Source of the DNA: a virus
Lineage: Duplodnaviria > Caudoviricetes
Length of the DNA stretch: 64,000 bases
IMG/VR virus record: IMGVR_UViG_2890725172_000001
Span: 1 to 64,000 of that record
Strand: one strand, 5' to 3'
The notes beneath the pieces were generated by a model. It had not been told where the DNA came from, did no database searches, and saw nothing but the letters and a program-made list of their open reading frames with translations. Made by a program: the position numbers and the translations under genes. Below are positions 14,079 through 39,671 of this stretch, one piece after another (position 1 is the first letter of the stretch; every line of letters starts with the position of its first letter).

Positions 14079-14383
14079 CTCCTGACGTAAAGTCAGCCAA
14101 GTCACCATAGACAGGCCCACCGTCGCGACGCCTGGTACTCCATGCCATCCTCAAGGCGTCTAGGCGGTGGGTCACTAAACGGTCCTCGGCGGTCGTATGA
14201 CCGCCTCACTTCATCACCGCATCGGCCCCCCGCCCCGTGGTTGAAGTGAATCTGCCTACCCAGCGGTCGAGCGTGGGGCTCCGATCGTCGAGGACCCACC
14301 AACTCCCCCCAATTCCACCTGGCTCCGGCGGAGATGATCTTGGTCCCTTCCGGGGCCGGAGGCAGGAAGCGAAGGGGGAGCCC

Positions 14384-14449
14384 GCCCCCGCTCGCCAGCG
14401 TGAGACCTCTCCCAAAGACGTGAGAGGCTCATCGCTGGCGAGCGGGGGC
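14384..14449. repeat. Long inverted repeat / possible terminator
   Basis: gcccccgctcgccagcg...cgctggcgagcgggggc, 17-bp perfect arms. Confidence 0.6.
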
Positions 14450-15019
14450 ATTGTTCTTCCGTACGCCGTCAGCTATCGCTTCGGTGTCGCACAATGCCGG
14501 GCCGGGCATTACTCCGGCCCCAGGGCGGGGTGTGTCGCAGATCTAACGCCAGGTCGACCCTCCCGCGTGCGCGCGGACTCCGAGGAATCGCTGTCATCCG
14601 TAGCGCGAGGGCTCTGCGCCCTCCCAGTTTGAGCCTGCCGTGTTCCGGACCCCGGCCTCGCGGCAGCTCACACCAACGGCTCCGCACGCACGCACGGCCA
14701 CACTGGTGTTCACGGGATCCAACGACTGGTCGTCTACGACTTCAGCTGCCCATCTTGCTTTCGCTCTCACTACACCCGGTGGGCAAACCGGTGGCCGGTA
14801 CTCATTCCGCCTTATCCGACGTGGCGGGCATAGCGAAGCTCACGCGTTTGCGCAGCTCAGATGATGTGTCCGGCCTTCGCCGAGATCACTTTGTTCGACG
14901 GGTTGGACTCTACTACGAGTTTAACAACTCGTGCAAGAGTGCAACTGCCCGGAGCTAGCAACATGCACCCTGACCAGGGCATACGTCACCCACTCCGGGC
15001 AGAAATGTGTAACTGACGA

Positions 15020-19811: not shown

Positions 19812-20125
19812 TATTCGTCCTCACGTCCAGTCCCACGCCACGCGCGAACCTTTACCCCACGTGCCGTCGCGAATAAGCGATACATGATGATGTACTCGTC
19901 GTAGTACTTCTTCTTGAGCCCTGACAGCGCTTTCGAGTAGAGCTTGGAGTGAGACGCCTCAGGGCCGAGCTCGTTCTTCGCGTCTGTGATGAGCGCCCAG
20001 TACTCGATCTTGTGATTATTCTTGAGCGCAGTGATGGCGTCGTTCTTCGCCTGATCGTGTGGACGCATCGGGTGTTTCGCTCGCCGTTTAGTGGTAGTGC
20101 TCATGACTCCCCTTGGACATGACAA
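19811..20125 (-). CDS. Helical-repeat protein
   Basis: AITALKNNHKIEYWAL / ALSGLKKKYYDEYIIMY. Confidence 0.7.
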   Translation of the reverse strand: MSCPRGVMSTTTKRRAKHPMRPHDQAKNDAITALKNNHKIEYWALITDAKNELGPEASHSKLYSKALSGLKKKYYDEYIIMYRLFATARGVKVRAWRGTGREDE

Positions 20126-20173
20126 ATAAGCCGAACGGCACCCAGCCGTCGACTAAATGGTTTCAGTTATGGG

Positions 20174-20839
20174 CTAGCTCTGCGACCTCTCGGCGAAATC
20201 GCTCACTGCCCTTGCCAGAAGGACAGGCGGAAGGTCCTCGTCGTCGTCATAAGACGGCGCCAGCCCCAGACCAAGTCTGAGAAAGACCTCAAGCCGTTGC
20301 GCGTTCGCATCCGTCGAGATCGACTCGATCAAGAACTCGACCATGCCAATCAACGCGTCGTAGAACTCCGGCGCCTTTTCCTTCGCCTCCTTCTCGGTCT
20401 CGATCGCCGTGATCAGCCAGGCCGCGAGGTCACGGAGCTTCTCCGGGTCCTTGCCCTGCGCGATGGCCTCGATCAGCCGCAGCTCTTCAGCGAGGCCTTC
20501 CGTCGTCCGGACGACGTAATGCCACCGGTGCTTCGGAAACCCGAACGTCTTCGCAGCGGCGGTCGGCGTCATGCCGGAAGCGACCAGTCGCTTAATGGCA
20601 GGGATCTTCGCGCGGATCGGGCTCCGACCCTCGGCGACGGCCGCGTCCCACTCCTTCTTCCGCTCCTCGAAGCTGGTGATCAGCCATCGCCAGTCCTTGT
20701 GCTCGACCCCGAGCTGCGCCCAGGCCGCCTCCTTTGTGGTGCCAGATCGCACCAACTCCAGCAGTGGTTCCCACCATGAAGGGCGGCTGAGGTCGCTGAC
20801 CTTCTCAGCCGTCGTCGTGTCGTTGTCCAGGAGAGTCAT
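20174..20839 (-). CDS. Tandem-HTH DNA-binding protein
   Basis: LVRSGTTKEAAWAQLGV and LVASGMTPTAAAKTFGF. Confidence 0.65.
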   Translation of the reverse strand: MTLLDNDTTTAEKVSDLSRPSWWEPLLELVRSGTTKEAAWAQLGVEHKDWRWLITSFEERKKEWDAAVAEGRSPIRAKIPAIKRLVASGMTPTAAAKTFGFPKHRWHYVVRTTEGLAEELRLIEAIAQGKDPEKLRDLAAWLITAIETEKEAKEKAPEFYDALIGMVEFLIESISTDANAQRLEVFLRLGLGLAPSYDDDEDLPPVLLARAVSDFAERSQS

Positions 20840-20880
20840 ACGAGCAGGGTACCTAGGTGTGCGACCCGATGGAAAGGCAC

Positions 20881-20903
20881 AACTAGTTTAAGAACTCGTC
20901 ACG
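20881..20903 (-). promoter_or_regulatory. Repeated motif copy upstream of the leftward operon
   Basis: CGTGACGAGTTCTTAAACTAGTT on the minus strand. Confidence 0.55.
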
Positions 20904-21557
20904 GTGAACTAGACAAACCGACCAGCGCCCTGGCATTATCACGACCTGGCAGTGCCGTCAACTTCATAATGGCATGCTCACGCGGCCTGCCGGTGCCGAA
21001 AATGACAGAGCGTGATGTATATCCATGCAGCCGCTCCCGGTGACACTGTCTCCCGGCTCACGGGGCATTTTCGCGCGGGTCACCAGGCACGGCAATGGTT
21101 GTCATTTTCATTTAAGGGTGGGGGGGTGTTATCAAATCGAAATGTCCGAGCCATTTACAAAACTGCTCGGCTGTGCATTGGGCCTGTGCGCGTGCATTAG
21201 TTGTGAGAATCAACATTCTCAAAGTTACTAGCCAGTTGGCTAGGGAGTGAGTGTTCACTCCGCTTCGCCGACACTGTTATGGTTTTGTGACTTCCCGCGT
21301 GGGGCCGTGGCCTGGCTACAGGGGCGTAGGGGCGCGGAGGTAGTTGGTACGCGTGGCGCGGACCGACATTCATGGCATTTATGCAGGTCGGAGCGATAAA
21401 TGTATCAAAATGCATATCATGCCATTTACATGCAACGCCCTGACCTGGGAAAACGCCATAACGTGAGATCTCCATGATCAAATAGGCGTTACTAACCCGT
21501 TATATAACCTGTCCTGGTATGTCCTATTATCCACCCATTTTGATAACGGATTGGCTA

Positions 21558-21586
21558 TAGACGACTACGTGAAAACCACGTAATGT
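21558..21586 (+). promoter_or_regulatory. Sigma70/HrdB-type promoter with a palindrome in the spacer
   Basis: TAGACG-N17-TAATGT; ACGTG-N5-CACGT at 21567-21581. Confidence 0.65.
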
Positions 21587-21590
21587 TCTG

Positions 21591-22287
21591 GGTGTCGGGC
21601 AACACGGACCGGCACGCAGGGCAGTAAGGGTTCTTCAGAAGTCGCCCGGGTTGAGCAGAGCTCCCCACGCGATCGGACCTACTTACTGGGTGTGCGTGCG
21701 AGACGGGATGGTTCCGCCTGGGCCGAATTGTCAACGGCCGGACACAGCTTCATCGACTCTGATTGGCGCACGGGTGAGAAAGCCCTAAAGGCTGACACGA
21801 ACGCGCTAGGTGCATGACCAGACCTGTAACTGGCATGTGCGAGACGGGAACGTCGCGGGACTCTGCGAACACCAGAGATGCGGCGGGAACTAGGTACGCG
21901 TGGAATGCGGCAATCCATTGGCAACCGCAGATCGCCTAGGTACGGGCTTGGTAGTGCTTGTCGGGTACTGAGGAATGGCGATCACCGGACATCGGGCCGA
22001 AATTTGGCCTGGTGATCGGGTAGGCGTAAACGGTGCGCAATCAAGTCGGGTGTATAACGCTCTGGCCCATATCGCGGATTGGGGAACGGAAACCGTGAAG
22101 GTCTGTCAGTAGGACGGTCGGATGTGTAGTTGGCATCCGAACGAGGGCAGAAACCACACGAGGAACGGGAACTGACTCTTAGGAGGTCTGCGGCTTGATA
22201 GCAAGACCGTCGTCTACGAAATGACAGGATGTGGCGCTCCCGGCAGTTGTTAGGTCACACCGGAACAAACGCTTATTGCCTGTCAAC
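21591..22287 (+). ncRNA. Candidate large (~700 nt) structured non-coding RNA
   Basis: No plus-strand ORF in the track; more than 12 helices identifiable by eye; bounded by a promoter and a tRNA mimic. Confidence 0.6.
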
Positions 22288-22357
22288 GCTCTGCTCTGGC
22301 AATTAGAGTAAGGCCGAATTTTGGCCGATTGGGGTTCGATTCCCTGACAGAGCGCCA
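22288..22357 (+). ncRNA. tRNA-like element with encoded CCA
   Basis: GCTCTG/CAGAGC-G-CCA acceptor, CTCT/AGAG arm, GGCC/GGCC arm, GGTTCGATTCC T-loop. Confidence 0.7.
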
Positions 22358-22387
22358 ATTCAGGACAACTGGTTAACCGAAAGAGAG

Positions 22388-22687
22388 ATGACCATGATCA
22401 TGCACGACCGTAGGCACACGTTTGTCTACACGCCCATTCGATTCCGCCGGTTGGAGCGCCGCGCGAACGGCGTGCATATCCGCTTCACCGGCGACCGTCA
22501 CACGTGCAAGTGCGCCTACGTGTGGCTGTACCACAAGTACAGCAAGCCCAACACGGCGCGTGCTTGCACGCGAAACGGCAAGTACGCGGCTATCGCGATG
22601 TACTGGAGTGCGCGCTTCAACTGGAACGGCAAGAACACCATTCGATACAACGGCACCAGTAAGCCGCTGTGGTTAACGCACGTCTAA
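22388..22687 (+). CDS. Basic hypothetical protein
   Basis: First ORF of the rightward operon. Confidence 0.55.
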   Translation: MTMIMHDRRHTFVYTPIRFRRLERRANGVHIRFTGDRHTCKCAYVWLYHKYSKPNTARACTRNGKYAAIAMYWSARFNWNGKNTIRYNGTSKPLWLTHV

Positions 22688-22709
22688 CCACAACCCTAAG
22701 GAGAGAACT

Positions 22710-22862
22710 GTGAAGATCCGAATCGTCAAGTGCCCGAAGCGTACGATCAGCCACGTCATGTGGAACATGACGCCGGTGTTCCTGTGGGCCGGTCCCGAAA
22801 ACGGCTACGACGGACACGTGGTCAAGTTCCGTGGGAACGGACAGTACAACTACGCGATCTAG
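22710..22862 (+). CDS. Small hypothetical protein (50 aa, not in ORF track)
   Basis: AAGGAG RBS, GTG start. Confidence 0.5.
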   Translation: MKIRIVKCPKRTISHVMWNMTPVFLWAGPENGYDGHVVKFRGNGQYNYAI

Positions 22863-22924
22863 GCCGTTGGCGATCAGGGCCGAATTCCATAAGGGGTTCG
22901 GCCTTAGGTCATCTCGGATATGTC
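22859..22924 (+). repeat. Intergenic hairpin family A, copy 1
   Basis: ctaggccgttgg...gccgaattcc-N4-ggggttcggcc...gtcatctcggat. Confidence 0.8.
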
Positions 22925-22945
22925 GCATCAATAGGAGGAATCTCA

Positions 22946-23467
22946 ATGAAGTTCACGACGGTTGACCCACAGCCGGAGGACGACAAGATCATTCCGACGC
23001 ACCGGATCAAGCTCTACGGATACGGCTGGACGCGGTTCCGGCTGATCAGTTTCGAAGCGGACACGGATTATGGCTTCTGGTACGGCAGGGCCCGTGTACA
23101 GGCGATGAACGGCGACGTTCGGTGGATTGACTTTGGTAAGTACAACTACACGAACATCGAATCCCTGACCGAAAACGACAAGGGTGCGTTCCCGTTTCAC
23201 AAGGATGCGCCGCGCGTGGGTGGCGGATACGACAAGGCGGTTCTCGGAGGAACGACGTTCTGTCCTCGTCTCGGAGAGATGACTATTAACGCTATCGCGC
23301 ACACGGACGAAACGTGGGCGGCCGTCGTCATGCAGCCAAAGGAAGGGGACGAGTGGGTGTGTTACATGGTGAACACGAAGACGGGTGAACTGTCGAATGG
23401 CGTGTTCGGTGACATGACAAACGTGTTCGTTCGCTTTGCGGAGCGTGTGAATCCGGCCGCATTCTGA
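22946..23467 (+). CDS. Hypothetical protein
   Basis: AGGAGG RBS. Confidence 0.7.
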   Translation: MKFTTVDPQPEDDKIIPTHRIKLYGYGWTRFRLISFEADTDYGFWYGRARVQAMNGDVRWIDFGKYNYTNIESLTENDKGAFPFHKDAPRVGGGYDKAVLGGTTFCPRLGEMTINAIAHTDETWAAVVMQPKEGDEWVCYMVNTKTGELSNGVFGDMTNVFVRFAERVNPAAF

Positions 23468-23532
23468 CTAGGCCGTTGGTGATTGGGCCCGAATTCCGCC
23501 AGGGGTTCGGGCCTTAGTCATCTCGGATGTGT
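23468..23532 (+). repeat. Intergenic hairpin family A, copy 2
   Basis: Near-identical to 22859-22924. Confidence 0.8.
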
Positions 23533-23552
23533 CATATAGCGAGAGGACAAGC

Positions 23553-23771
23553 ATGGAACTCAAGTTGGGTCAAACGCTTCACCACAACGCCACGGGAGAC
23601 GCCTTGCTGTTGGCTATGGCGTTCACTAGAACGGGACGCACGGTCATCGTTCTATGCGGTGGAAGCGAGTCGGTCTGTACGTTCATCGACGACAACGGAG
23701 AAATGGACGCTGGCATATACGGCACTTTGGGGTGGACCATGGAATGGTTCGCCCGTCGTGTCACTGAGTAA
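23553..23771 (+). CDS. Hypothetical protein
   Basis: GAGG RBS. Confidence 0.6.
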   Translation: MELKLGQTLHHNATGDALLLAMAFTRTGRTVIVLCGGSESVCTFIDDNGEMDAGIYGTLGWTMEWFARRVTE

Positions 23772-23786
23772 GCCGTAAGGACTCGT

Positions 23787-23839
23787 CTAGGACTCGCATC
23801 GGGTCTAGCTCTAGTAGCTAGGCCCCATTGCATGGCTAG
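23787..23839 (+). repeat. Intergenic hairpin family B, copy 1
   Basis: ctaggactcgca-[hairpin]-attgcatggctag. Confidence 0.7.
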
Positions 23840-23994
23840 CCAGTCATGTGTTGGACGCCGATTTTGGAAGGTGTCGCATGTACATGCAGTTCCTTAAGGT
23901 CACCAACACGCGTCGCCTGTTCTACGGCTACAGGATGACGCGCGCCACGTGGCGCAAGTACAAGTAGCCCAACTAGTCAACTCAAGGGAGAGAC

Positions 23995-24300
23995 ATGCAG
24001 ACCACGATTCGTCAGGTCATCCGGCATAAGCGCCGTCCGCGCCGTGAGCCGTCCAAGTCGTACGTCAAGAAGACACGCATGGTCCCGATCAAGGAATGCA
24101 CGGTGAAGGACATCCGGGAACACCTGGCGAACTGTGACCGGTGCATGTCTCCCGGAAGCCTGGTCATCTTCTATCTCGACCGGGAAAAGGCCGCGATTCT
24201 CGCGAATGATGCGAGTGAGGCGCGTTACTGGGGACTCAAGGTGGACAACCAGATTGCCGCCCACCACAAGGGTTGGCTTGAGTTCCCGATCGCGGGCTGA
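23995..24300 (+). CDS. Hypothetical protein
   Basis: GGAG RBS. Confidence 0.65.
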   Translation: MQTTIRQVIRHKRRPRREPSKSYVKKTRMVPIKECTVKDIREHLANCDRCMSPGSLVIFYLDREKAAILANDASEARYWGLKVDNQIAAHHKGWLEFPIAG

Positions 24301-24373
24301 AAAGCCGAAACGCGCAGTGATGCGCGTCGTGTTGGGTGTGGTGCCCAATGCCTGACGACTGGTAGCCGTCAGC
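24296..24373 (+). ncRNA. Type II hammerhead ribozyme (2-nt insertion after the core)
   Basis: GAAA-stem III-GUC-stem I-CUGACGA in order, with all three stems pairable. Confidence 0.7.
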
Positions 24374-24401
24374 TCCGCGCCGAATTTCAGGAGGTAGCAG
24401 T

Positions 24402-24584
24402 ATGACGAACAAGGTCAAGAAACTCGCGCTCTTCTACATCTGGGATTGGAAGCGCCGGGGGTTCTGGCTGTGTCCCACGATTTACGCGGAAGCTATCGCT
24501 GACGCCAAACTCATGGTCGAGTTGTACGGAGACACGGAAGCCGTCAACCGTCGTCTGCGTGAAATGAAGACGTACACCATCTAA
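24402..24584 (+). CDS. Small hypothetical protein
   Basis: AGGAGG RBS. Confidence 0.65.
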   Translation: MTNKVKKLALFYIWDWKRRGFWLCPTIYAEAIADAKLMVELYGDTEAVNRRLREMKTYTI

Positions 24585-24602
24585 GAGCTAGGAGATACGT
24601 AC

Positions 24603-25001
24603 ATGGGTGACCTTGAGTTGGTCATGGCTGATGTCACGCGCTCGCACCGTAGCCAGACGCCGATTTACGACGGCACGGCAAAGGTGATCGCGTCGTGGTG
24701 GTACGGAGGACACAGCCACGCTTTTACTGGCCTCAACATGTCCGGGCGTATCTACATGCCTGAACTCTTGGCGGAAATCGATGGCGCAATTGAGTACGTT
24801 CGAAAGAGCCCTGCAAATCATTGGGACGCACACAAGCGGGTCAACGATCAGGGAACGCGTAGGCACAACCTAGCGGCCTTAGAGGCCCTTAAGGTCTACG
24901 TCCAGTACCACAAGAACCGGGGGCCGCAAGAGGGATGGGGGCGCGTGTGGGTGGATGTGCTCACGCCCGAGGACGAATACAGCATCTTGGAAGGTGAATA
25001 G
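24603..25001 (+). CDS. Hypothetical protein
   Basis: AGGAG RBS. Confidence 0.7.
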   Translation: MGDLELVMADVTRSHRSQTPIYDGTAKVIASWWYGGHSHAFTGLNMSGRIYMPELLAEIDGAIEYVRKSPANHWDAHKRVNDQGTRRHNLAALEALKVYVQYHKNRGPQEGWGRVWVDVLTPEDEYSILEGE

Positions 25002-25003
25002 TC

Positions 25004-25261
25004 ATGTGCCGAAATGACTCGCCTATGGTGACCGTGTACATGCCGTCTAACGGTCTCTATCAGGTGGTACCAAGCCGCCTGGCCGCGATTGAAGCGCGGT
25101 ACCTACCGAACACGCTAGATGATCTCAAGGCGCACGTCCGGCGCATTCTGCGCGACGACTACGGCAACCCTGATGGCGCGATCGTCGCGCACATGGAAGG
25201 AATCGAAACAATCACTCAGTGCCTTGTCGTGCTCGCCGAATTACACGGCATGGGGAGCTAG
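25004..25261 (+). CDS. Hypothetical protein
   Basis: Operon ORF. Confidence 0.6.
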   Translation: MCRNDSPMVTVYMPSNGLYQVVPSRLAAIEARYLPNTLDDLKAHVRRILRDDYGNPDGAIVAHMEGIETITQCLVVLAELHGMGS

Positions 25262-25263
25262 TC

Positions 25264-25318
25264 CTAGGACTCGCAACGCGGGCACCGGTCACGTACCGGT
25301 GTCCTATTGCGTGGCTAG
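25264..25318 (+). repeat. Intergenic hairpin family B, copy 2
   Basis: ctaggactcgca-[hairpin]-attgcgtggctag. Confidence 0.7.
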
Positions 25319-25335
25319 TACAGCACGTTAGTTAG

Positions 25336-25644
25336 GTGCCGAAATATCAGGAGGTCCCGCTAGGCATGGGATTCCAGTACAGCAGTCACATCGCGGCTCT
25401 GGGGGCTCTGCGAACGCTGGCAGACAAAGAGGGGCTTTGGAGTCATCGCGACTTCAGAAGTTCCGGCCCGCAACTGTTGATCGGTGAGCCGGAAACCGGG
25501 AAGTACATCCGCGTGTTCTGCTTCCGCAACAACTACAAGGTGTTCATCCCCGGTGCGCCGGATGACGCACAGGGGATCGTATTCCGGGAAGAGCCGCAGG
25601 AAGTGTTAGACGCACTTCCCGCACTACTCAAGAATGTGACATAA
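25336..25644 (+). CDS. Hypothetical protein
   Basis: Operon ORF; may start at internal ATG after AGGAGG. Confidence 0.6.
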   Translation: MPKYQEVPLGMGFQYSSHIAALGALRTLADKEGLWSHRDFRSSGPQLLIGEPETGKYIRVFCFRNNYKVFIPGAPDDAQGIVFREEPQEVLDALPALLKNVT

Positions 25645-25864
25645 CATGATGGCCGATGAAGACGTAGACGTCGATTTCGAAATCCCGTGGTACGTAGACG
25701 ACGAATTCGATCCCGACCACTGCACGGAACACGGTCACAGTATCGACCTGTGCCGCCATCTCGACTGATCATCTGATCAAGGCCGCACACGTACCACTTC
25801 TCCGGAACGTGTGCGGTCTTATTCATGTGATCCCCAACCATCTAGCCGAAAGGCCGAATTCACC

Positions 25865-26320
25865 ATGCACGAATTCAGCGAGTACCCCAAAAAGGCAGCC
25901 AACGGTAGGGACATGTATTGGGCGTGTTGCGTCTCGACCATTGGCCCGACTTGCGGTCACAAGGCCTTGCCGCAGGATGACTCCATGACGCTCTACCCGC
26001 GTACCGAGCCTCTCAACGTCAACATGCCTAAGACGTACTTCGGTCGCAAGCCTGAAGATCTCACCCATGGTCTGGGGTGGGTGCGTGCCTGCCCGATTTA
26101 TCAGGTGCCGAGTTCTCCCGGCTCTACGCGCCCGGAAGTCGGTGAATACGCATTCTCCTGCTACGTGGTCGAAACGTTCGGCAACGACATGGTGAAAGTG
26201 CGGTTCGACTGGGACGGAGTGCCCGGCCAGCGTGAACAGATCGTCTACCCTCACGAAATTCACGCTCCCAAGTGTCAGTGCCGCGCCTGTAAGACCGACC
26301 ACATTTACAACGTCGACTAG
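25865..26320 (+). CDS. Hypothetical protein
   Basis: Operon ORF, Cys-rich ends. Confidence 0.6.
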   Translation: MHEFSEYPKKAANGRDMYWACCVSTIGPTCGHKALPQDDSMTLYPRTEPLNVNMPKTYFGRKPEDLTHGLGWVRACPIYQVPSSPGSTRPEVGEYAFSCYVVETFGNDMVKVRFDWDGVPGQREQIVYPHEIHAPKCQCRACKTDHIYNVD

Positions 26321-26350
26321 ACCCAAATCCATCGAAACGGAGAGCGCGTC

Positions 26351-27001
26351 ATGATGTTTAATCTCGAAGAGGAGACGGGCTACCGCTGCGCGGTGGACGG
26401 TCGCGACTTCTACACGGAAGAGATGAGGCTCTTACTCAAGGTCAGGTTCCGAATTTCGGTGCCCCTGAAGAACCCCGAGATGTTCGACTACCTGAATGGT
26501 ACGGTGTTCCTCTGCGGGCCGTGCCGTCGTGATTTCGAGCACATCATCGCGCCTCACATCATCAAAGAACGGGAGCACACCTGTCGTGAGCCTGAAGGCG
26601 AACAGGCCAACGAGTGTGAAGCGAACGGGCACCAGGAATACACCGAATATGAGGTGTTGTGGATCGAGGTGTGCGAGTTCGACACTGACGTCAACGGCAA
26701 TCCCAAGTCCATCTATGAGGTCGCGGCAGAGGACATGACGCGTGACTGCGGGTGGCCTCTCACGGACGGATACGACTGGTTCTCTTGGGAGCCCTACCAG
26801 GAATACCGAACCAGCGCCGACACCTGTTACACGCAAGACAAGGCGTTCTTGCGCGGTCAGTGGCCTGATGGTGATCACTACGAGGCTCACGGCCGAATCC
26901 GCGACGTGTTCGACCGCTGGGAGACCAAACGGCGTACCGAGTGGGACGACTACCAGGCGCGCACCGCTGCCCATCAGGCTCGGATGAAGACCAACGCGTA
27001 A
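26351..27001 (+). CDS. Hypothetical protein
   Basis: GGAG RBS. Confidence 0.7.
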   Translation: MMFNLEEETGYRCAVDGRDFYTEEMRLLLKVRFRISVPLKNPEMFDYLNGTVFLCGPCRRDFEHIIAPHIIKEREHTCREPEGEQANECEANGHQEYTEYEVLWIEVCEFDTDVNGNPKSIYEVAAEDMTRDCGWPLTDGYDWFSWEPYQEYRTSADTCYTQDKAFLRGQWPDGDHYEAHGRIRDVFDRWETKRRTEWDDYQARTAAHQARMKTNA

Positions 27002-27087
27002 CGCTGGACGTGGGGCCTGAGATTCGGGGATCAGGCCCTAGCGTCGAACGGACGCGTTAACCTACAAGGCTGCCTACACACCAAAGG

Positions 27088-27522
27088 ATGATCATGACTG
27101 AGACTCGACCGCACCACTGGCACATCGCGCATGGCCTGGCGGGCTACGGACCGGACGGCGCGGACGGCTACAACACCGCTACGGAGATCAGCGGGTCTGG
27201 TGGTCTCGCCGACCAGATCAGCGACGAACTCGACCGAGACGCCGAATCGGCTCACGGTCTGATCAGGACTGAAGGTGAGGCGGGCAACTTCAAAGAGGCC
27301 TTCGAGGCGTGGGAGCTTCACGACAAGCTGACTACGCTGTCCCTCAACTTCAGCATCAGGCGAGAGGACGCGCCTCTCTACAAGGATGATAAGCCGCTGT
27401 GGGAGAGGACCGTTCTCCGGCTGGTGGCCGAAAACTTCCCGCTGGACGTGTCGGACAACTCGCGGATGTACGTGTGGGAGTGCACGGAGCCGGAATGCGA
27501 GCATCTCACCGACGACGAATAA
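27088..27522 (+). CDS. Acidic hypothetical protein
   Basis: AAGGA RBS. Confidence 0.7.
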   Translation: MIMTETRPHHWHIAHGLAGYGPDGADGYNTATEISGSGGLADQISDELDRDAESAHGLIRTEGEAGNFKEAFEAWELHDKLTTLSLNFSIRREDAPLYKDDKPLWERTVLRLVAENFPLDVSDNSRMYVWECTEPECEHLTDDE

Positions 27523-27751
27523 GCTTCCCCGCCGAAATCTCGGGCCCTGGCGAAATCGCTAGGGCCTTTGTCATACATAGGAATAGGAACGCGGATGTCA
27601 AGCTACACACCCACCACATGTCCTCAGTCAGGTTGTGGGCAGCAGGGAACATTCCTGTCGAACTACGGAACCGGCAATGAGGCCCTGTACATGTGTCCGA
27701 ACAACCACCAGTGGACTGCCAAGAAGAAGTAACCCACCAGAAAGGTAGAAC

Positions 27752-28075
27752 ATGAACACCGAGCGATTCACGCCGGAATACTTCAAGCCGCGCGTTGCCA
27801 AAGGCGTCGACAAGCTCGACGAGAAGAACCCCGGATGGTTCCACGATGTCAATCCGGACCTGTTAGAGATGGACTCCGCCGACGCCTGTATCCTCGGCCT
27901 GCTCTACGGCTGGTACTTCAGTGGGCTCCGAGCCTTGTCTGTCACGGACGGTACAGAATTCGGCTACAACATCGACTTCGAAGAGTCCGACTGCGATGAG
28001 GTCCGGTCGGAGGCCTGGCACACGCTTCTAGTCCTCTGGCTGGACGTCATCGATGAGAAGAGGAAGGCATCATGA
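27752..28075 (+). CDS. Hypothetical protein
   Basis: RVAKGVDKLDEKNPGW...CILGLLYG. Confidence 0.7.
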   Translation: MNTERFTPEYFKPRVAKGVDKLDEKNPGWFHDVNPDLLEMDSADACILGLLYGWYFSGLRALSVTDGTEFGYNIDFEESDCDEVRSEAWHTLLVLWLDVIDEKRKAS

Positions 28076-28347
28076 CCACCGTGACCGATGGTTGGCGCGT
28101 CGGCGACGTCGTCAGGCTCCCGGCCGATCAGACCGTGTGGGAAGTCGATAGCGTCTACCGGCGTCAGGGTGAGGTGGTCGAACTGATCCTAGGCCGCTCG
28201 GATGCAAACACCACGGATGATGGTGCCCGGTGGGCTCGCGGAACCGTGAGGGCTGTGTCTCCGGATCGCGTCACACGGGTCAAGCACTGGTACGAGCGCA
28301 CGCTCTACGGCTTGGATGAAGAGTCCCGTTGGGGCGAGCCTGCCTAG
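28072..28347 (+). CDS. Hypothetical protein
   Basis: ATGA-coupled ORF. Confidence 0.65.
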   Translation: MTTVTDGWRVGDVVRLPADQTVWEVDSVYRRQGEVVELILGRSDANTTDDGARWARGTVRAVSPDRVTRVKHWYERTLYGLDEESRWGEPA

Positions 28348-28378
28348 CTTCTGCCAAATCTCCTAGACAAGGACACTC

Positions 28379-28789
28379 ATGGACACGGGATTACTTCTCT
28401 GGCGCGTAACTCTGCAATGGCAGAAGAAGATTACGGCTGCTCTTAAGCCCTTGGGCCTGACCCACGTGCAGTTTGCTCTTATGAGTGAGCTGGAGCGCGT
28501 GAGGTCCGAAGACGGGCAGGTCAACCAGAAGCAGCTAGCCAGGCGAGCACGCACAGACGAGATGATGACCGGGCAGGTCCTGCGGGTTCTCGAAACGCGG
28601 GGGCTGGTCATCCGGTGGCGCGCTGAGAGCAACCGGCAAAGCATTCTGGTTAGGCTGACGGACCTTGGGCACGAGCGCCTGACCACGGCTACACCTGTCG
28701 TCAAGGCCGTCGATGACACGTTCTTCGGGGCTGCCGAGCCGGACCTGAGAGACCTCTTTACCCTGCTGGGTGAGAGCGAGACTGCCTAG
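28379..28789 (+). CDS. MarR-family transcriptional regulator
   Basis: GLLLWRVT..WQ.....ALKPLGLTHVQF, VLRVLETRGLVIR, VRLTDLG. Confidence 0.9.
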   Translation: MDTGLLLWRVTLQWQKKITAALKPLGLTHVQFALMSELERVRSEDGQVNQKQLARRARTDEMMTGQVLRVLETRGLVIRWRAESNRQSILVRLTDLGHERLTTATPVVKAVDDTFFGAAEPDLRDLFTLLGESETA

Positions 28790-28867
28790 CCTGGCCCGAA
28801 AATCGGCCCCCTGTCGTAGGGCCCCACTACCCTGCACCTGATACATAGAGCGAGAGGACACACCGGC

Positions 28868-29140
28868 ATGGGTGCCGAGATTGCCGAACCCCCAGACGGC
28901 TTCAAGGTCGGGGACATCCTGATTCTCTTCCGGACTGGTCCCGGGGATGACGGGGACTACGCGAGCCCCGCCACGACCCGTCACGCGATCATGGCTGCTC
29001 TCAGCAAGGCTGGCCTACGACCTTCTGAGGGGTCATTGCGTGACCATGAGGACATCATGGCGTTCCGGGAGCGTGGAACTCTCCTTGAGCCCATGATCCT
29101 CACCCTAGGCCGTAGCGGCTGGAACCCGCCCGGCCGCTAG
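28868..29140 (+). CDS. Hypothetical protein
   Basis: GAGG RBS. Confidence 0.6.
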   Translation: MGAEIAEPPDGFKVGDILILFRTGPGDDGDYASPATTRHAIMAALSKAGLRPSEGSLRDHEDIMAFRERGTLLEPMILTLGRSGWNPPGR

Positions 29141-29166
29141 CCCGACCAACACCGAGAGGACACGAT

Positions 29167-29631
29167 ATGAAGACTCTGCGTGAGCGCATCACCGACGACG
29201 GTATCCACATCATCTTCGAGAACCCGGACGGCACCGGCGACGACCTGTCAGAGCTCGTCGCCGAGCCCACGCCAACCAGCGGTGCCAAGTGGAAGGTCTG
29301 CCTCAAGCATCACAATCACGGCGGCCTGCTCTGGGTCGACTTCGGTAACTCGATCGCCGCCGGTCTCGACCAGCCCGACGTCAATGAGGTGGTGTTGGGG
29401 CTGGTCGGCAACGCGATCCCCTTCCTCAACAGCGAGCCGTTCCCGGAGTGGGGACGGAATTACTACGGCCTGTCGGTCCGCGACTTCGAGGACAGTGTGT
29501 CCCTGTGGAACTTCGTGGAGAGGGCGTACACCTCCTACGTGGAGAACGAGGAGAAGACGCGCGAACTGATGGAGTGGTTGGGGCCTGACCGGCTGCGAAC
29601 GTACGCCTTCGAGACCGAATTCGACGTCTGA
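29167..29631 (+). CDS. Hypothetical protein
   Basis: GAGG RBS. Confidence 0.7.
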   Translation: MKTLRERITDDGIHIIFENPDGTGDDLSELVAEPTPTSGAKWKVCLKHHNHGGLLWVDFGNSIAAGLDQPDVNEVVLGLVGNAIPFLNSEPFPEWGRNYYGLSVRDFEDSVSLWNFVERAYTSYVENEEKTRELMEWLGPDRLRTYAFETEFDV

Positions 29632-29643
29632 GAAGACCAACGA

Positions 29644-29705
29644 CTGAACGGCCTGTACCCGACTACCCCTCACGTCAGGTGGTGGGTAGTCCGTAGAGGT
29701 TTCAG
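29644..29705 (+). repeat. Intergenic hairpin family C, copy 1
   Basis: ctga...cctgtac-[hairpin]-gtagagg...tcag. Confidence 0.65.
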
Positions 29706-29742
29706 CCGGAACCCATTCCCGCCGATTTCTGAGAGGCTACAT

Positions 29743-29913
29743 ATGCAGTTCGATATCAACTTTCAAGTGGATAGTAACGGCAGCGGTCCCGGTGAGGCTG
29801 CCTATTCGAAAGACGAGGTGTTCGCCGCGCTCAAAGACGTGCTGTTCTCGACACCCATCCCGATGAATGACGGCGGCGTTCTGATCATCACCCGTATCAG
29901 TCCGATCAACTAG
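29743..29913 (+). CDS. Small hypothetical protein (56 aa, not in ORF track)
   Basis: GAGG RBS following GCCGATTT. Confidence 0.55.
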   Translation: MQFDINFQVDSNGSGPGEAAYSKDEVFAALKDVLFSTPIPMNDGGVLIITRISPIN

Positions 29914-29924
29914 GAGACCAAGCA

Positions 29925-30173
29925 ATGGAACGTAAGCCCAGTGAGACCATGCGGATTCTCACGATCGACACACTTGAGCGCCTGAACCTCAGCAGTGCGG
30001 GCAACCCCCGATTCAAGGTGACGTTCACCAACGGGGAATCGGCGCAGACGCAGAGTGACGCCTCCGTCAACTACGGAATCGAGAACTCCGAATATCGGGG
30101 CGTCCCTCTTAAGGTCACGTTCTCGCCCAACGGTCGCATCACATACATCGAAGTGGCGAAGTCGCAGCCCTGA
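29925..30173 (+). CDS. Hypothetical protein
   Basis: AGGAG RBS; LERLNLSSAGNPRFKVTF. Confidence 0.7.
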   Translation: MERKPSETMRILTIDTLERLNLSSAGNPRFKVTFTNGESAQTQSDASVNYGIENSEYRGVPLKVTFSPNGRITYIEVAKSQP

Positions 30174-30211
30174 CTGTACGACATATCAGGCTGCGACAAA
30201 GGTAGGCGCAC

Positions 30212-30868
30212 ATGTCAATCGTCAGACGCGGATACGTCCGCCCGTTCGAAGTCACATATAGGCTCGCGGACGGCACGCGGAGAATGCGGGGCTTCGATTC
30301 GCGAGAGGAGGCTGACAAATGGGCGGACGAGTGCAACAGGCTCGATCCCGGTAGCCTCGTACGTGAGGAATTCGCCGTGGAGAACACGGAAGACGGTGCC
30401 ATCTCCGTGCACATCCCAAGGGTTAACGTGAGCGTGCAGACGGCCAAACGTGTTGAGGCCGCAATCAATCGCATACTCAACACTCAGGTCATGCACGTTG
30501 CGTATCACTCTGGGACGGACAACGGGAACGACGAAGAGCTCTACCAGATCATTTTAGAGATGTTCGACAACGAAGAGTGGTTACGCGAGTCGTACACTGA
30601 CGATCCCCGTCTGCCTGAGTCGGATAACATCACCCTCACGTTGTTTTCTGTGGTTCGTGACGACGTTGAGTTCTGGGTACTCGTCAGCGAAAACCCGGAA
30701 AGTTTCGTCCTGTACCAGTACCCCGACCATGGGGCCGCGATCACTGACTATGAGCAGAGCGTTCGCAACCTCGTCGTGGTCGGTGCTGTGCTGGAAGCCG
30801 ATTTCGAGGTCCCCGGGTTCGAGTACAAGAGTTCCGAGGGTGGTTACTTCCGGTACAACACCCTCTGA
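30212..30868 (+). CDS. Hypothetical protein
   Basis: Operon ORF. Confidence 0.65.
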   Translation: MSIVRRGYVRPFEVTYRLADGTRRMRGFDSREEADKWADECNRLDPGSLVREEFAVENTEDGAISVHIPRVNVSVQTAKRVEAAINRILNTQVMHVAYHSGTDNGNDEELYQIILEMFDNEEWLRESYTDDPRLPESDNITLTLFSVVRDDVEFWVLVSENPESFVLYQYPDHGAAITDYEQSVRNLVVVGAVLEADFEVPGFEYKSSEGGYFRYNTL

Positions 30869-30881
30869 ATTCTGACCCACA

Positions 30882-30942
30882 CTGATCACTGCGTTCGCCT
30901 CCCCTCCTATCGGGGGTAGGGGAGGCTTGCGGAGAGGTTTAG
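30882..30942 (+). repeat. Intergenic hairpin family C, diverged copy
   Basis: ctga..ctgcgt-[hairpin]-gcggagagg.ttag. Confidence 0.5.
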
Positions 30943-30985
30943 CAGGGCCATACTCCGGGCCGAAATTCACAGACAAGGAATCAAT

Positions 30986-31555
30986 ATGACTGAGAGCACC
31001 ACGCCGCGCCTGCACATCAAGGTCACGGACACTCAGGACCGGTACATCGGGGAGAACTGGTTCGACGCGACCGACTATTACGCCGTAGACGAAGGGCTTG
31101 AAGAGATCGTCAGTGAAGCGAGTGACGTCCTCACGTACAAGACGGAGATCATCGGCTCCGAGGGGTTCGGCTGGTTCGCTGACAAGCTCTCCGGCCTGTC
31201 GGTCGAGAAGGCATGCGGCATCGGCTACCTGATCGAAGAGAAGGGGCTCGACGTCGTCACCGAGTGGCACAAGCTTCGTGGCCCCATCGAGTACTTCCCC
31301 GCCGACGCGATCGACGCGGAGCGGAAGTTCGACGCCGAATACCAGGGAGAGTTCAGCTCCGCTGGCGCGTTCGCCAAGGACTACGTTCCCCAGCAGCACG
31401 CCGAAATGTTTGAGACGGTGCCGAGAAACATCGTCGAGAACATCAACTGGGAGGGTGTGGCCGAGAGTCTGCACGGCCATTACGGCGTCACGGTGGTAAG
31501 CAGGGGTCCTGGTCAGTGGGACGGCGTCGTGGTCTTCCGTCTGGAGAACGAGTAA
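30986..31555 (+). CDS. ardA: Antirestriction protein, ArdA family
   Basis: Acidic; IGENWFD, EGFG, YQGEFSS...FA, INWEGVA. Confidence 0.8.
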   Translation: MTESTTPRLHIKVTDTQDRYIGENWFDATDYYAVDEGLEEIVSEASDVLTYKTEIIGSEGFGWFADKLSGLSVEKACGIGYLIEEKGLDVVTEWHKLRGPIEYFPADAIDAERKFDAEYQGEFSSAGAFAKDYVPQQHAEMFETVPRNIVENINWEGVAESLHGHYGVTVVSRGPGQWDGVVVFRLENE

Positions 31556-31557
31556 CC

Positions 31558-31872
31558 ATGACTCTGATCAAGTTCGGGTCGTGGAACAACGACCCCGACG
31601 TACACAAACAGCACATCACCCTCATGGGCGAGCGCATCGCAATCATCACGCTTGAGCGCGGTGCCAACGACATCTGGGGTATGCGGCTGCTGGGTGCCAT
31701 CAGGGAGGGGTCTGGTGGAGAGCGGGACAAGATCGGCCCGCCGGTGGGGTTCCCTGCCGATTACGACGTCGACACCGTTCGGAGCGCGGCCATGGCCACT
31801 GCCGCCGCGCTGCTCTCCGACTGGTTGAAGGGGCAGGTCCTAGAGGGGCTGGAAGAGGCGAAGCGGTCATGA
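31558..31872 (+). CDS. Hypothetical protein
   Basis: Operon ORF. Confidence 0.6.
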   Translation: MTLIKFGSWNNDPDVHKQHITLMGERIAIITLERGANDIWGMRLLGAIREGSGGERDKIGPPVGFPADYDVDTVRSAAMATAAALLSDWLKGQVLEGLEEAKRS

Positions 31873-32141
31873 CGGCACCGACTCCCGAACCCGGCGAGCT
31901 GAGAGACGACATCGGGCAAGCACAGGTCGTCCATGTGCTCTCACCTCCTGAGCGTATCCCTATCAACGAGGACGGAGCCCCGGCTGTCGGCCTGCCTGTG
32001 ATGCTCTACGAGCCGAACTACGCCAACCCCGGTGCCGGGCCGATAAAGCGTCAGGTGGTTCTGATGCTCCCCTGGGATGAGGCGAGTCGCCTCGTCATCG
32101 ATATCACACGGCTGATCGTGGAGGATTCGAGTGGCGTCTAG
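31869..32141 (+). CDS. Hypothetical protein
   Basis: ATGA-coupled ORF. Confidence 0.6.
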   Translation: MTAPTPEPGELRDDIGQAQVVHVLSPPERIPINEDGAPAVGLPVMLYEPNYANPGAGPIKRQVVLMLPWDEASRLVIDITRLIVEDSSGV

Positions 32142-32240
32142 ATCTCAGGCGATGTTACTTGATCTGATCGAGAGGATCATCCGGGACATCCTCCGTAGTC
32201 GTCAGCGCCGAAATTCCCGACAGAAAAGGAGAGGAGACTC

Positions 32241-32606
32241 ATGAACAGCGTTGAGTTCGAATCTGGTGATGTCGCGAGGTTCTATCTGGGAACGGAGGAG
32301 ATTCGCTACACCTTCGTCTCTGACGGGGCGGCCGGAACGATCACCGCCAAGTCCGCGTTCTTCGGCGAGCCCAAAAAGATGGCCGTCATGCTTCAGCTCT
32401 CGGACAACACTGAAATTGGCGACTGGGGAATTATGGGGGTCGTCCTCTGTGACGGGCACCAACTCACGGCGCGGCCTCATTTCAACGCGGCCGACAAATA
32501 CCCGCTCGACGGCGTCGACAACGAAGAGGCGCGTGCGAGCATTTCGCGCCTCTTCTCCGAAATCGCATGGCATTACTACGAGATCACGAACTGGAGAAGG
32601 AGCTAG
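32241..32606 (+). CDS. Hypothetical protein
   Basis: AGGAG RBS. Confidence 0.65.
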   Translation: MNSVEFESGDVARFYLGTEEIRYTFVSDGAAGTITAKSAFFGEPKKMAVMLQLSDNTEIGDWGIMGVVLCDGHQLTARPHFNAADKYPLDGVDNEEARASISRLFSEIAWHYYEITNWRRS

Positions 32607-32607
32607 C

Positions 32608-32901: not shown

Positions 32902-32931
32902 CGTCGGACCAACATCAAAGAGGAATAACCC

Positions 32932-33495: not shown

Positions 33496-33542
33496 CCTGG
33501 GTCATCGTCCCTTTGAGGGGTGTACCACCAACAGACCCGTAG

Positions 33543-33863: not shown

Positions 33864-33981
33864 TTCGCTGCGCACTCTCTCACCTCCCGGCTTCGGGGAC
33901 GGAAGGTGAGGGACTCGCTGGAATCAGTCCAGCACAGTTGTAGGGGCCGAAATTCGGAGAGGACATGAGGAAGAGAGACGC

Positions 33982-34979: not shown

Positions 34980-35027
34980 GACCGTAACGAGAAGCGCAAC
35001 AAGTTAACCAATTAAGGAGACAATCAC

Positions 35028-38060: not shown

Positions 38061-38064
38061 TTAC

Positions 38065-39670: not shown

Positions 39671-39671
39671 C

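What the first reader, a model, noticed from the sequence alone, without database searches (positions are those of the whole stretch)
21558..22357. Unannotated ~700-nt highly structured RNA heading the early operon
Seen: a TAGACG-N17-TAATGT promoter is followed by ~800 nt with no plus-strand ORF in the track, in an otherwise densely coding genome. Nested helices include GCACGCA/TGCGTGC (21612/21693), CAGTAAG/CTTACTG (21622/21682), GGCCG/CGGCC, ACGCG/CGCGT (21801/21897), CGTCGC/GCGGCG, CTCTG/CAGAG, TGCGG/CCGCA, CGATCACC/GGTGATCG, TCGGATGT/GCATCCGA and GTCAGT/ACTGAC. GTGCGAGACGGGA occurs twice (~21696, ~21837). Known: phages carry giant ncRNAs such as GOLLD and ROOL, but I recognise no hallmark of those or of group I/II introns, RNase P or tmRNA. 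Inference: a new large phage ncRNA class expressed first on infection or induction.
Basis: partly seen in the sequence, partly recalled or inferred. Interest (0 to 1): 0.88.

Follow-up and report, generated by a model that had tools for sequence, protein, structure and literature searches.

The report
Untranslated leader of phage early operon
The gene-free 0.8 kb is most likely the untranslated leader of a temperate actinomycete phage's early operon, ending in a tRNA-shaped cutting signal; nothing tested shows it folds into one large ornate RNA.

Summary
The window is the left 64 kb of a 110-kb temperate myophage contig (integrase, sheath, baseplate, 14 tRNAs) in a 70% GC actinomycete assembly. 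Its relatives are Nonomuraea prophages and, more distantly, Streptomyces phage BRock.

The gene-free stretch is real and longer than reported (20840-22387). No frame shows the strong GC3 bias of the neighbouring genes. The promoter is credible: two related phages (G301, G302) have an alignable promoter with a small inverted repeat in the spacer and a similar 5' hairpin. Each is followed by a 680-860-nt non-coding leader, then early genes punctuated by type II hammerheads.

"Highly structured" is not supported. Whole-leader MFE z is -1.29, sliding windows average about -0.4, and short stems are only marginally above shuffles. There is no Rfam match and no homologue of this leader anywhere searched.

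The solid local elements are a 70-nt cloverleaf with a tRNA T-loop and GCCA 3' end (22288-22357, 30 nt before the first start codon), two near-palindromic GGCCGAAWTTTGGCC hairpins, and an exact 13-mer repeat.

Best reading: a transcribed early leader, cut at the tRNA-like element. The closest precedent is the ~500-nt non-coding Pleft RNA of mycobacteriophages L5/D29. This scan has noted tRNA-like-capped early phage leaders on other DNA.

The parts
20840..21557 (.). Divergent non-coding control region between the leftward genes (ending at 20839) and the early rightward promoter. Lower GC, with repeated GCCATTTACA boxes and a conserved box CATTTAAGGGTGGGGG at 21109-21124.
   Evidence: No coding signature. 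The box matches exactly. It is also present in G301, G302 and G308, and near the left end of phage BRock.
21558..21586 (+). Putative early promoter: TAGACG, 17 nt, TAATGT, with inverted repeat ACGTG/CACGT (21567-21571 / 21577-21581) in the spacer. This repeat is a candidate operator.
   Evidence: Sequence. It aligns with the TTGACA/TTGAC promoters of G301 and G302, which also carry a 4-bp inverted repeat (CTCG/CGAG) in the spacer. The generic sigma-70 scan did not list it.
21592..21615 (+). 5'-proximal hairpin of the predicted transcript: GUGUCGG, a 10-nt loop, CCGGCAC.
   Evidence: Read from the sequence. The matching positions in G301 and G302 form GUGAGGCC/GGCCACAC and GUUCGGCC/GGCCGGAC hairpins. 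Similarity in the first ~35 nt is the only alignable part.
21591..22287 (+). Body of the untranslated leader (about 697 nt). G-rich and purine-rich (G 33%, purines 57%), with CGGGA repeated 5 times on this strand only.
   Evidence: No Rfam family matches at E <= 10 apart from one chance-level snoRNA hit (sR60, 15 bits, E 6.3). No homologue found.
21696..21708 (+). First copy of the exact 13-mer GTGCGAGACGGGA, directly 3' of a hairpin.
   Evidence: The flanks are not significantly alike.
21837..21849 (+). Second copy of the 13-mer. Its last bases form the GACG-GGAA-CGUC hairpin, which has a GNRA-type loop.
   Evidence: sequence.
21979..22018 (+). Strongest local hairpin of the leader (CGATCACC...GGTGATCG). 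At its tip is the near-palindrome GGCCGAAATTTGGCC (21995-22009).
   Evidence: -23.5 kcal/mol, z -3.17. It is a 93% repeat of the element at 22312-22326 and resembles CCCCGAAAATTTGGGCTGGTTGACCGGG in the G302 leader.
22288..22357 (+). tRNA-like element: 6-bp acceptor, 4-bp D-like arm with GG in the loop, GGCC-GAAUUUU-GGCC arm (no usable anticodon loop), 6-bp T stem with loop UUCGAUU, discriminator G, and encoded CCA.
   Evidence: The isolated 70-mer folds as this cloverleaf at minimum free energy (-26.3 kcal/mol, pair probabilities 0.5-1.0). GGTTCGAWTCC occurs in the contig only here and in 6 tRNA genes. T-arm-like hairpins are rare outside tRNAs. ARAGORN and the Rfam tRNA model do not call it at normal thresholds.
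22358..22387 (+). 30-nt spacer with a weak ribosome binding site (AAGAGAG) before the first early gene (22388-22687).
   Evidence: the gene has GC3 0.84.
24303..24371 (+). Type II hammerhead ribozyme between early genes. This is context: the same operon carries a self-cleaving processing site.
   Evidence: Rfam RF02276, 43.9 bits against a gathering score of 37. Three copies each in the early operons of G301 and G302.

Best explanation
The stretch is the long untranslated leader of the early lytic operon of a temperate actinomycete myophage.

Inferred: transcription starts about 21592 from a probably repressor-controlled promoter that has an inverted repeat in its spacer.

Shown: the first ~800 nt carry no gene, and they end 30 nt before the first start codon in a 70-nt tRNA-shaped element with an encoded CCA end.

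Inferred mechanism: host tRNA-processing enzymes (RNase P at 22287/22288, and 3' trimming after the CCA) cut the primary transcript at this element. That would release a ~700-nt non-coding RNA and a short-leadered early mRNA. The type II hammerhead further downstream would cut the same operon transcript in a similar way.

The body of the leader is best seen as a string of local elements: a 5' protective hairpin, two GGCCGAAWTTTGGCC hairpins or operators, a duplicated 13-mer, and CGGGA repeats. These are separated by fast-evolving spacer. It is not one large, globally folded RNA. What the released RNA does is unknown. By analogy with the abundant, stable Pleft non-coding RNA of mycobacteriophages L5/D29, it may accumulate early in infection.
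For: Non-coding: flat codon-position GC in all frames, against GC3 0.67-0.88 in flanking genes.

Temperate phage context: integrase, sheath, baseplate, polymerase and tRNAs.

Promoter and 5' hairpin are alignable with G301 and G302. Both relatives have 680-860-nt ORF-poor leaders followed by early genes with three hammerheads each.

In G301/G302, conserved islands include hairpins with compensatory changes. One has 4 of 9 pairs changed on both sides around an invariant loop. The other is a long hairpin with G-U pairs that would be A-C mismatches on the other strand, which favours + strand RNA. The module ends about 29 nt before the start codon, the same place as the tRNA-like element here.

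The tRNA-like element is the minimum-energy cloverleaf, with a T-loop consensus that is otherwise tRNA-specific in this contig, and a GCCA end.

Precedent: the L5/D29 Pleft RNA is ~500 nt, has no ORFs, is the most abundant early transcript and is processed to 100-400-nt species (PMC5712189).
Against: There is no RNA evidence. No RNA run was available, so transcription, the start site and the cleavage are all inferred. The promoter is weak by consensus (TAGACG) and was not picked up by the generic scan. The tRNA-like element is below threshold for ARAGORN and the Rfam tRNA model, and RNase P cleavage is untested. Apart from ~35 nt at the 5' end, the c45 leader shares no detectable sequence with the G301/G302 leaders, so the architecture may be analogous rather than homologous. 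The near-palindromic GCCGAAWT sites could act on DNA, not RNA.
Confidence: 0.55

Rival explanations
1. A genuinely new large structured non-coding RNA: one ~700-nt molecule with a defined global fold, in the manner of GOLLD, ROOL or OLE, made first on infection.
For: Length, lack of ORFs and G-rich composition. GNRA-type hairpins are present: GACG-GGAA-CGUC here, and CUCGC-GAAA-GCGGG / CCCC-GCAA-GGGG covarying in G301/G302. There is a duplicated 13-mer. The G301/G302 alignment folds better than column shuffles (z -4.2).
Against: MFE z is -1.29 and window z averages about -0.4. Stems are near chance. There is no Rfam hit. In G301/G302 the number of compensatory pairs is not above shuffles (34 against 28.8 +/- 4.1), and the reverse strand scores almost as well (z -3.9). 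The middle of those leaders is unalignable with indels of 30-50 nt. No homologue of the c45 leader was found in any collection searched.
Confidence: 0.12
2. A DNA-level regulatory spacer. The region holds operators (stoperator-like sites) for the prophage repressor and perhaps other DNA signals, and the RNA made from it has no function of its own.
For: The phage is temperate, with an integrase and an XRE/DUF5753 regulator to the left. GGCCGAAATTTGGCC and GGCCGAATTTTGGCC are near-palindromes. The GCCGAAWT core recurs about 17 times on the + strand of the early operon, often as CCGAA(A)TTCGG or GAATTC palindromes in intergenic spaces. This resembles the oriented intergenic stoperators of cluster A mycobacteriophages (established knowledge). 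The promoter spacer holds an inverted repeat.
Against: Only three such sites lie in 800 nt, which does not explain the length. The tRNA-like cloverleaf with a CCA end and the G-U-containing hairpins in relatives make sense only as RNA. The strong G over C skew on the + strand is unexplained by DNA binding.
Confidence: 0.2
3. Non-functional remnant (decayed genes in a hypervariable region), or a carrier of very small translated ORFs.
For: The whole 8.6-42 kb arm is hypervariable among relatives. Flanking genes are orphans. GGAGG at 22181 is followed after 8 nt by a 9-codon TTG ORF (sequence). Three ATG ORFs of 41-45 codons exist.
Against: A leader of similar length at the same position is kept in three phages whose sequences have otherwise diverged beyond recognition. 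There were no translated-similarity hits to related genomes in 20840-22387. The small ORFs lack ribosome binding sites and a coding GC3 signature. Phage genomes rarely keep 0.8 kb of junk.
Confidence: 0.08

Closest known systems
Pleft non-coding RNA of cluster A mycobacteriophages L5, D29 and StarStuff (Dedrick et al. 2017, PMC5712189)
   Same: Both are temperate actinobacteriophages. A ~500-nt stretch with no conserved ORF lies directly downstream of the repressor-controlled early lytic promoter and ahead of the first early gene. In L5/D29 it is transcribed first and processed into smaller species, its function is unknown, and its sequence evolves fast.
   Different: No sequence similarity: blastn against the phage collection found nothing. 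L5/D29 are siphoviruses of Mycobacterium. There the RNA ends mainly by termination, and no tRNA-like 3' element has been described. Abundance and stability are shown for L5/D29 and untested here.
tRNA-like processing signals in long transcripts (tRNA punctuation): MALAT1-mascRNA in mammals, t-elements of plant mitochondria, and tRNA-mRNA co-transcripts such as the E. coli tufB operon
   Same: A cloverleaf without decoding capacity lies at the junction between two functional RNA segments. The acceptor-plus-T stack is 12 bp, the length that RNase P and 3' processing enzymes measure. The upstream RNA would gain a defined 3' end.
   Different: Those examples are eukaryotic, organellar or true tRNAs. 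Cleavage here is inferred only. The element here has an encoded CCA and an arm carrying a phage-specific motif.
RNase III site R0.3 in the phage T7 early leader; type I-III hammerheads between phage genes (Perreault et al. 2011, PMC3088659)
   Same: A structured processing site sits about 30 nt upstream of the first early gene, after a long promoter-proximal leader. The early polycistronic RNA is cut into units. A hammerhead is present in the same operon here (24303-24371).
   Different: The element here is tRNA-shaped, not a ~20-bp duplex. G301/G302 have a long hairpin at that position instead.
P4 CI RNA and P1/P7 c4 RNA (immunity RNAs cut out of early-operon leaders by RNase P)
   Same: A small tRNA-like RNA is embedded in the untranslated leader of a temperate phage's early operon. 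Short sequences related to its exposed arm are repeated nearby and in front of genes.
   Different: No homology. Here the complementarity is only a ~9-nt A/U-rich near-palindrome, which a DNA-binding protein explains equally well. No evidence of trans action.
Large phage-associated RNAs GOLLD and ROOL (Rfam)
   Same: Size range, phage location and proximity to tRNA-like sequence.
   Different: No match to any of 4227 Rfam models. No thermodynamic or covariation signal of a large fold.

Membership tests
Any Rfam family (GOLLD, ROOL, OLE, HEARO, raiA, group I/II introns, RNase P, tmRNA, riboswitches) | Score at or above the family's gathering threshold with its covariance model | tested here: not met
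   cmscan of the whole window at gathering thresholds, and of 21200-24600 at E <= 10. Only Hammerhead_II at 24303-24371 reached threshold. Inside 21558-22357 the only hit is a chance-level snoRNA match (15 bits, E 6.3).
tRNA (for the 3' element 22288-22357) | Detected by ARAGORN or the Rfam tRNA model at normal thresholds, with a 7-nt anticodon loop carrying U33 | tested here: not met
   Not called by ARAGORN at default settings or by RF00005 at E <= 10. It appears only at 80% thresholds, where 110 calls are made in 64 kb. The loop GAAUUUU has A at position 33 (sequence).
tRNA-like structure (processing mimic) | Cloverleaf fold, T-loop consensus, a 12-bp acceptor-plus-T stack, discriminator plus CCA | tested here: met
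   The MFE of the 70-mer is the cloverleaf, with pair probabilities 0.5-1.0. GGTTCGATTCC is otherwise found only in tRNA genes of the contig. The 6+6 bp stack and GCCA end are read from the sequence.
tRNA-like structure (processing mimic) | Cleavage by RNase P and 3' processing in vivo or in vitro | not testable with these tools
   No RNA data; no RNA-holding sequencing run was listed.
tmRNA | tRNA-like domain formed by the 5' and 3' ends, G3:U70, and a tag reading frame; detection by ARAGORN | tested here: not met
   ARAGORN found no tmRNA at default settings. The acceptor has U3-A at the third pair, not G-U (sequence). Low-threshold calls are abundant noise.
L5/D29-type early (Pleft) non-coding RNA | ORF-free stretch of about 0.5 kb or more directly downstream of the early lytic promoter of a temperate actinophage | tested here: met
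   The position of the promoter is inferred from sequence and from alignment with relatives.
L5/D29-type early (Pleft) non-coding RNA | Sequence homology to the L5/D29 region | tested here: not met
   blastn (word 11) of 21400-22500 against 50,697 phage records: no match.
L5/D29-type early (Pleft) non-coding RNA | Very abundant, stable transcript early in lytic growth | not testable with these tools
   No RNA run holds the sequence.
Thermodynamically structured RNA | MFE significantly below dinucleotide shuffles | tested here: not met
   z -1.29 for 791 nt. 150-nt windows run from -1.7 to +1.8 inside the leader.
Evolutionarily conserved RNA structure | Significant covariation across homologues | tested here: inconclusive
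   No homologue of the c45 leader exists in the collections searched. In the analogous G301/G302 pair, individual hairpins covary, but the total number of compensatory pairs is not above column shuffles. Two sequences give no statistical power.

The most novel reading that the evidence does not exclude
RNase P releases both a ~700-nt early RNA and a stable 70-nt tRNA-shaped RNA, and one of them acts in trans. The tRNA-like RNA's non-anticodon arm (GGCC-GAAUUUU-GGCC) can pair, with one G-U, with the GCCGAAWU boxes that sit just upstream of the ribosome binding sites of about 15 early genes. That would make it an immunity or timing RNA in the manner of P4 CI or P1 c4, but with many targets. Alternatively, the long RNA, with its repeated CGGGA and 13-mer motifs, titrates a host or phage RNA-binding protein.
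Probability: 0.1. Interest if true: 0.8.

Novelty: new variant of a known kind. Interest (0 to 1): 0.42.

Why it matters
Long gene-free leaders behind early promoters are turning up in many temperate phages, and one (L5/D29) is the most abundant early transcript and toxic to the host, yet none has a known function. This case adds a lineage (Nonomuraea-type myophages) in which the leader is kept in position and length while its sequence turns over. Here its 3' boundary is marked by a tRNA-shaped element, and the same operon also uses hammerhead ribozymes. That makes one idea directly testable: that phages cut early polycistronic RNA with interchangeable modules (tRNA mimic, ribozyme, long hairpin) and thereby release a separate early non-coding RNA. 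It does not, on present evidence, add a new class of large ornate RNA.

Tried and rejected
Searches for homologues of the c45 leader, all empty:
- blastn against the phage collection.
- DNA search of 300 genomes of the host's family.
- DNA search of five IMG/VR relatives and two Nonomuraea genomes.
- nhmmer against G301, G305 and G308.
- A pattern for the tRNA-like element in viral, genome and metagenome collections.

Flanking proteins as anchors:
- The 221-aa left neighbour and the 99-aa first early gene are singletons among 5.8 billion proteins, and absent from the phage and IMG/VR collections.
- The first gene of G301/G302 has only those two copies.
- A 15-mer from the conserved G301/G302 loop gave 13 chance hits.

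Sequencing runs: no RNA holder was listed. DNA contigs of one run span the region without a break, and three other runs hold short identical pieces.

Rejected readings:
- Genome terminus or packaging site inside the finding. The contig ends lie elsewhere, next to the integrase, and assembly is continuous. However, a box conserved with BRock's left end lies at 21109, outside the finding.
- attP fragment of a host tRNA. No host match of 16 nt or more was found, and the integrase is 21 kb away.
- CRISPR-repeat mimic. No CRISPR array was found in the host assembly.
- Internal duplication around the 13-mer. The flanks are not significantly similar.
- tmRNA.
- A low-threshold ARAGORN call at the 3' end of the G301 leader, judged to be noise.

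The hammerhead search of whole Nonomuraea genomes scored only 150 of about 14,000 candidates, so it says nothing.

Full report
Context. The window is bases 1-64000 of contig C45 (110,447 bp, 62% GC) in an 8.3-Mb, 70% GC actinomycete assembly. C45 is a phage genome. It carries a tail sheath, baseplate wedge, minor tail and tail fibre proteins, DNA polymerase I, ribonucleotide reductase, a helicase, a queuine tRNA-ribosyltransferase-like gene and 14 tRNA genes. A tyrosine integrase sits at its left end, so the phage is temperate. The nearest named phages are the Streptomyces phage BRock group, at 41-43% sheath identity. Closer relatives (53-63%) are IMG/VR contigs and Nonomuraea prophages or phage-sized contigs. 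Genes left of 20839 run leftward and genes from 22388 run rightward, so the finding lies in a divergent control region.

The observation. The gene-free stretch is real and is in fact 1548 nt long (20840-22387). Flanking genes show GC3 of 0.67-0.88 with GC2 near 0.4, while all frames of the leader are flat. The 41-45-codon ORFs have no ribosome binding site and no coding signature. The 13-mer GTGCGAGACGGGA is present exactly twice, 141 nt apart, and nowhere else in the window. Its flanks are not significantly alike.

The list of nested helices, however, is about what a 60% GC sequence gives. Perfect 7-bp stems number 11 against 4.8 +/- 2.8 in shuffles (p about 0.05), and 6-bp and 8-bp stems are not enriched. 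The MFE of the whole leader has z = -1.29, and the reverse strand does better at -2.61. Sliding 150-nt windows inside the leader range from -1.7 to +1.8, whereas the hairpins between downstream genes reach -3.3 to -4.8. No Rfam family matches at E <= 10 apart from one chance-level snoRNA hit (sR60, 15 bits, E 6.3).

Comparative evidence. No sequence homologue of the c45 leader was found in the phage collection, in 300 genomes of the host's family, in related viral contigs or in Nonomuraea genomes. Both flanking proteins are singletons.

The architecture does recur. In the complete relative G301, a non-coding region of about 1.9 kb separates leftward genes from a TTGACA promoter. An ~860-nt leader follows, then a small first gene, and three type II hammerheads lie further down the operon. 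G302, a provirus in Nonomuraea sp. SYSU D8015, has the same layout with a ~680-nt leader and three hammerheads.

The promoters of c45, G301 and G302 align. The alignment covers the -35 box, a small inverted repeat in the spacer (ACGTG/CACGT here, CTCG/CGAG in the others), the -10 box, and the first ~35 transcribed bases, which can form a 5' hairpin in all three. Upstream, a box CATTTAAGGGTGGGGG (21109-21124) is shared with G301, G302, G308 and, nearly, with the left end of BRock.

What the G301/G302 pair shows. The two leaders are alignable only in islands of 76-79% identity: the 5' ~100 nt, a central patch, and the 3' ~110 nt. The middle is unalignable with indels of tens of bases. Within the islands there are real RNA-type signals. 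A GNRA hairpin keeps its shape with a different stem (CUCGC-GAAA-GCGGG against CCCC-GCAA-GGGG). A 9-bp hairpin around an invariant CCUAGCGAA loop has 4 pairs changed on both sides. A long hairpin contains G-U pairs that would be A-C mismatches on the other strand. This 3' module ends about 29 nt before the start codon.

Globally the signal is weak. The consensus fold beats column shuffles (z -4.2), but so does the reverse strand (-3.9), and compensatory pairs are not more numerous than in shuffles (34 against 28.8 +/- 4.1). This is the pattern of a modular leader with a few constrained elements, not of one large constrained fold.

The 3' element in c45. At the same place, 30 nt before the first start codon, c45 has a 70-nt element (22288-22357). 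Folded on its own, its minimum-energy structure is a four-arm cloverleaf (-26.3 kcal/mol, pair probabilities 0.5-1.0). Its T arm carries GGTTCGATTCC, a motif found in the contig only here and in six tRNA genes, and 38 times in the 8.2-Mb host. T-arm-like hairpins are otherwise rare outside tRNAs. The acceptor (6 bp) and T stem (6 bp) together make the canonical 12 bp, followed by G and CCA. It cannot decode, because the loop is GAAUUUU without U33. Standard tRNA finders reject it. It is not a copy of a host tRNA. I read it as a tRNA mimic that recruits tRNA-processing enzymes. That is inference from established knowledge of RNase P substrate recognition, and it is untested here.

Other local elements. 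The strongest hairpin (21979-22018, z -3.2) carries at its tip GGCCGAAATTTGGCC, repeated at 93% in the 'anticodon' arm of the tRNA mimic and resembling a hairpin in the G302 leader. Its core, GCCGAAWT, recurs about 17 times on the + strand between 21.7 and 37.3 kb, often 10-35 nt before start codons, against about 1.5 per 100 kb per strand in the host. Many copies extend to palindromes such as CCGAAATTCGG or GAATTC. These sites may therefore be DNA operators of a dimeric regulator, comparable to the oriented intergenic stoperators of cluster A mycobacteriophages, rather than RNA sites. I cannot decide between the two. CGGGA is repeated on the + strand only in all three leaders: 5, 7 and 4 copies against about 1.3-1.7 expected. 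All three are G-rich and purine-rich.

Interpretation. The best-supported reading is a transcribed, untranslated early leader with a 5' hairpin, a few protein- or RNA-recognition motifs, and a 3' tRNA-like processing module. The hammerhead at 24303-24371 continues that processing further along the operon. It would be a leader-derived RNA of modest and local structure.

The closest documented case is the ~500-nt non-coding RNA made from Pleft of mycobacteriophages L5, D29 and StarStuff. That RNA lies directly downstream of the early lytic promoter, has no conserved ORFs, is the most abundant early transcript, is processed into 100-400-nt species and is toxic when expressed. Its function is unknown (PMC5712189). 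T7's R0.3 RNase III site, and the P4 CI and P1 c4 RNAs cut out of early leaders by RNase P, are mechanistic relatives (established knowledge). Notes from this scan on other genomes describe tRNA-like-capped early phage leaders, and hammerheads or tRNA look-alikes punctuating phage operons. I treated those as leads only.

Verdict. The finding is real as a non-coding early leader and is ordinary in kind, with one attractive feature: the tRNA mimic at its 3' boundary, in an operon that also uses hammerheads. The claim of a new large, highly structured RNA class is not supported by thermodynamics, stem statistics, Rfam or the limited comparative data. It cannot be formally excluded without RNA data or more homologues.

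Noticed in passing
window 145-1413, and both contig ends (C45:1-6 and 110442-110447): A tyrosine integrase is the first gene of the contig. The two contig ends share GCGCCG. The related contig G301 ends in a shared CCCCCAGTC, and G301 and G308:C24 begin at the same gene order. The contig ends therefore look like attachment-site cores of a temperate myophage, not arbitrary assembly breaks.
   Followed up: partly
window 21109-21124: The box CATTTAAGGGTGGGGG is conserved in the control regions of G301, G302 and G308, and, as CATTAAAGGTGGGGGG, about 35 nt from the left physical end of Streptomyces phage BRock. It may be a packaging, replication or regulatory signal.
   Followed up: partly
window 21722-40100, + strand: The GCCGAAWT motif is strongly oriented and lies just upstream of many early ribosome binding sites. 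Many copies are parts of palindromes (CCGAAATTCGG, GAATTC), so a DNA operator (stoperator-like) role is as likely as an RNA role. G308 carries GTGTGCCGATTTC in the equivalent intergenic positions.
   Followed up: partly
window 24303-24371; L040 7874-7953, 10581-10651, 12378-12458; G302:C1 5675-5749, 6453-6531, 8710-8779: Type II hammerhead ribozymes punctuate the early operons of c45 (one copy) and of the relatives G301 and G302 (three each; one G302 copy is below the gathering score).
   Followed up: partly
window 2036-3784: A 582-aa protein matches PHROG 850 ('RNA-binding protein') with no Pfam hit. BRock has a counterpart (gp191) among its tRNA genes. It may be a Ro60-like protein, which would suggest a partner Y-like RNA nearby.
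   Followed up: no
C45:65174 (+), beyond the window: A T-arm-like hairpin gcaggTTCAAATcctgc lies outside the tRNA array, on the strand opposite to the surrounding genes. G301 has a real tRNA with an almost identical T arm at L039:1640-1714.
   Followed up: no
window 14079-15019: A second stretch of about 940 nt has no ORF with a coding GC3 signature. It lies between a rightward and a leftward gene in the putative immunity region.
   Followed up: no
window 22850-22925, 23400-23530, 23700-23850, 24200-24350: Intergenic hairpins in the early operon have much stronger folding z-scores (-3.3 to -4.8 on the + strand) than anything inside the leader.
   Followed up: partly
window 19875-22608 (pieces): Short pieces (151-229 nt) with no or one mismatch to this region occur at low depth in three other public runs, one labelled freshwater metagenome. 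Either the same phage is present there or there was carry-over between libraries.
   Followed up: no
host contig C29:52702-52940: A 59-nt tandem repeat (4 copies) in the host contains a GGCCGAAGGCC hairpin. It is not a CRISPR array.
   Followed up: no
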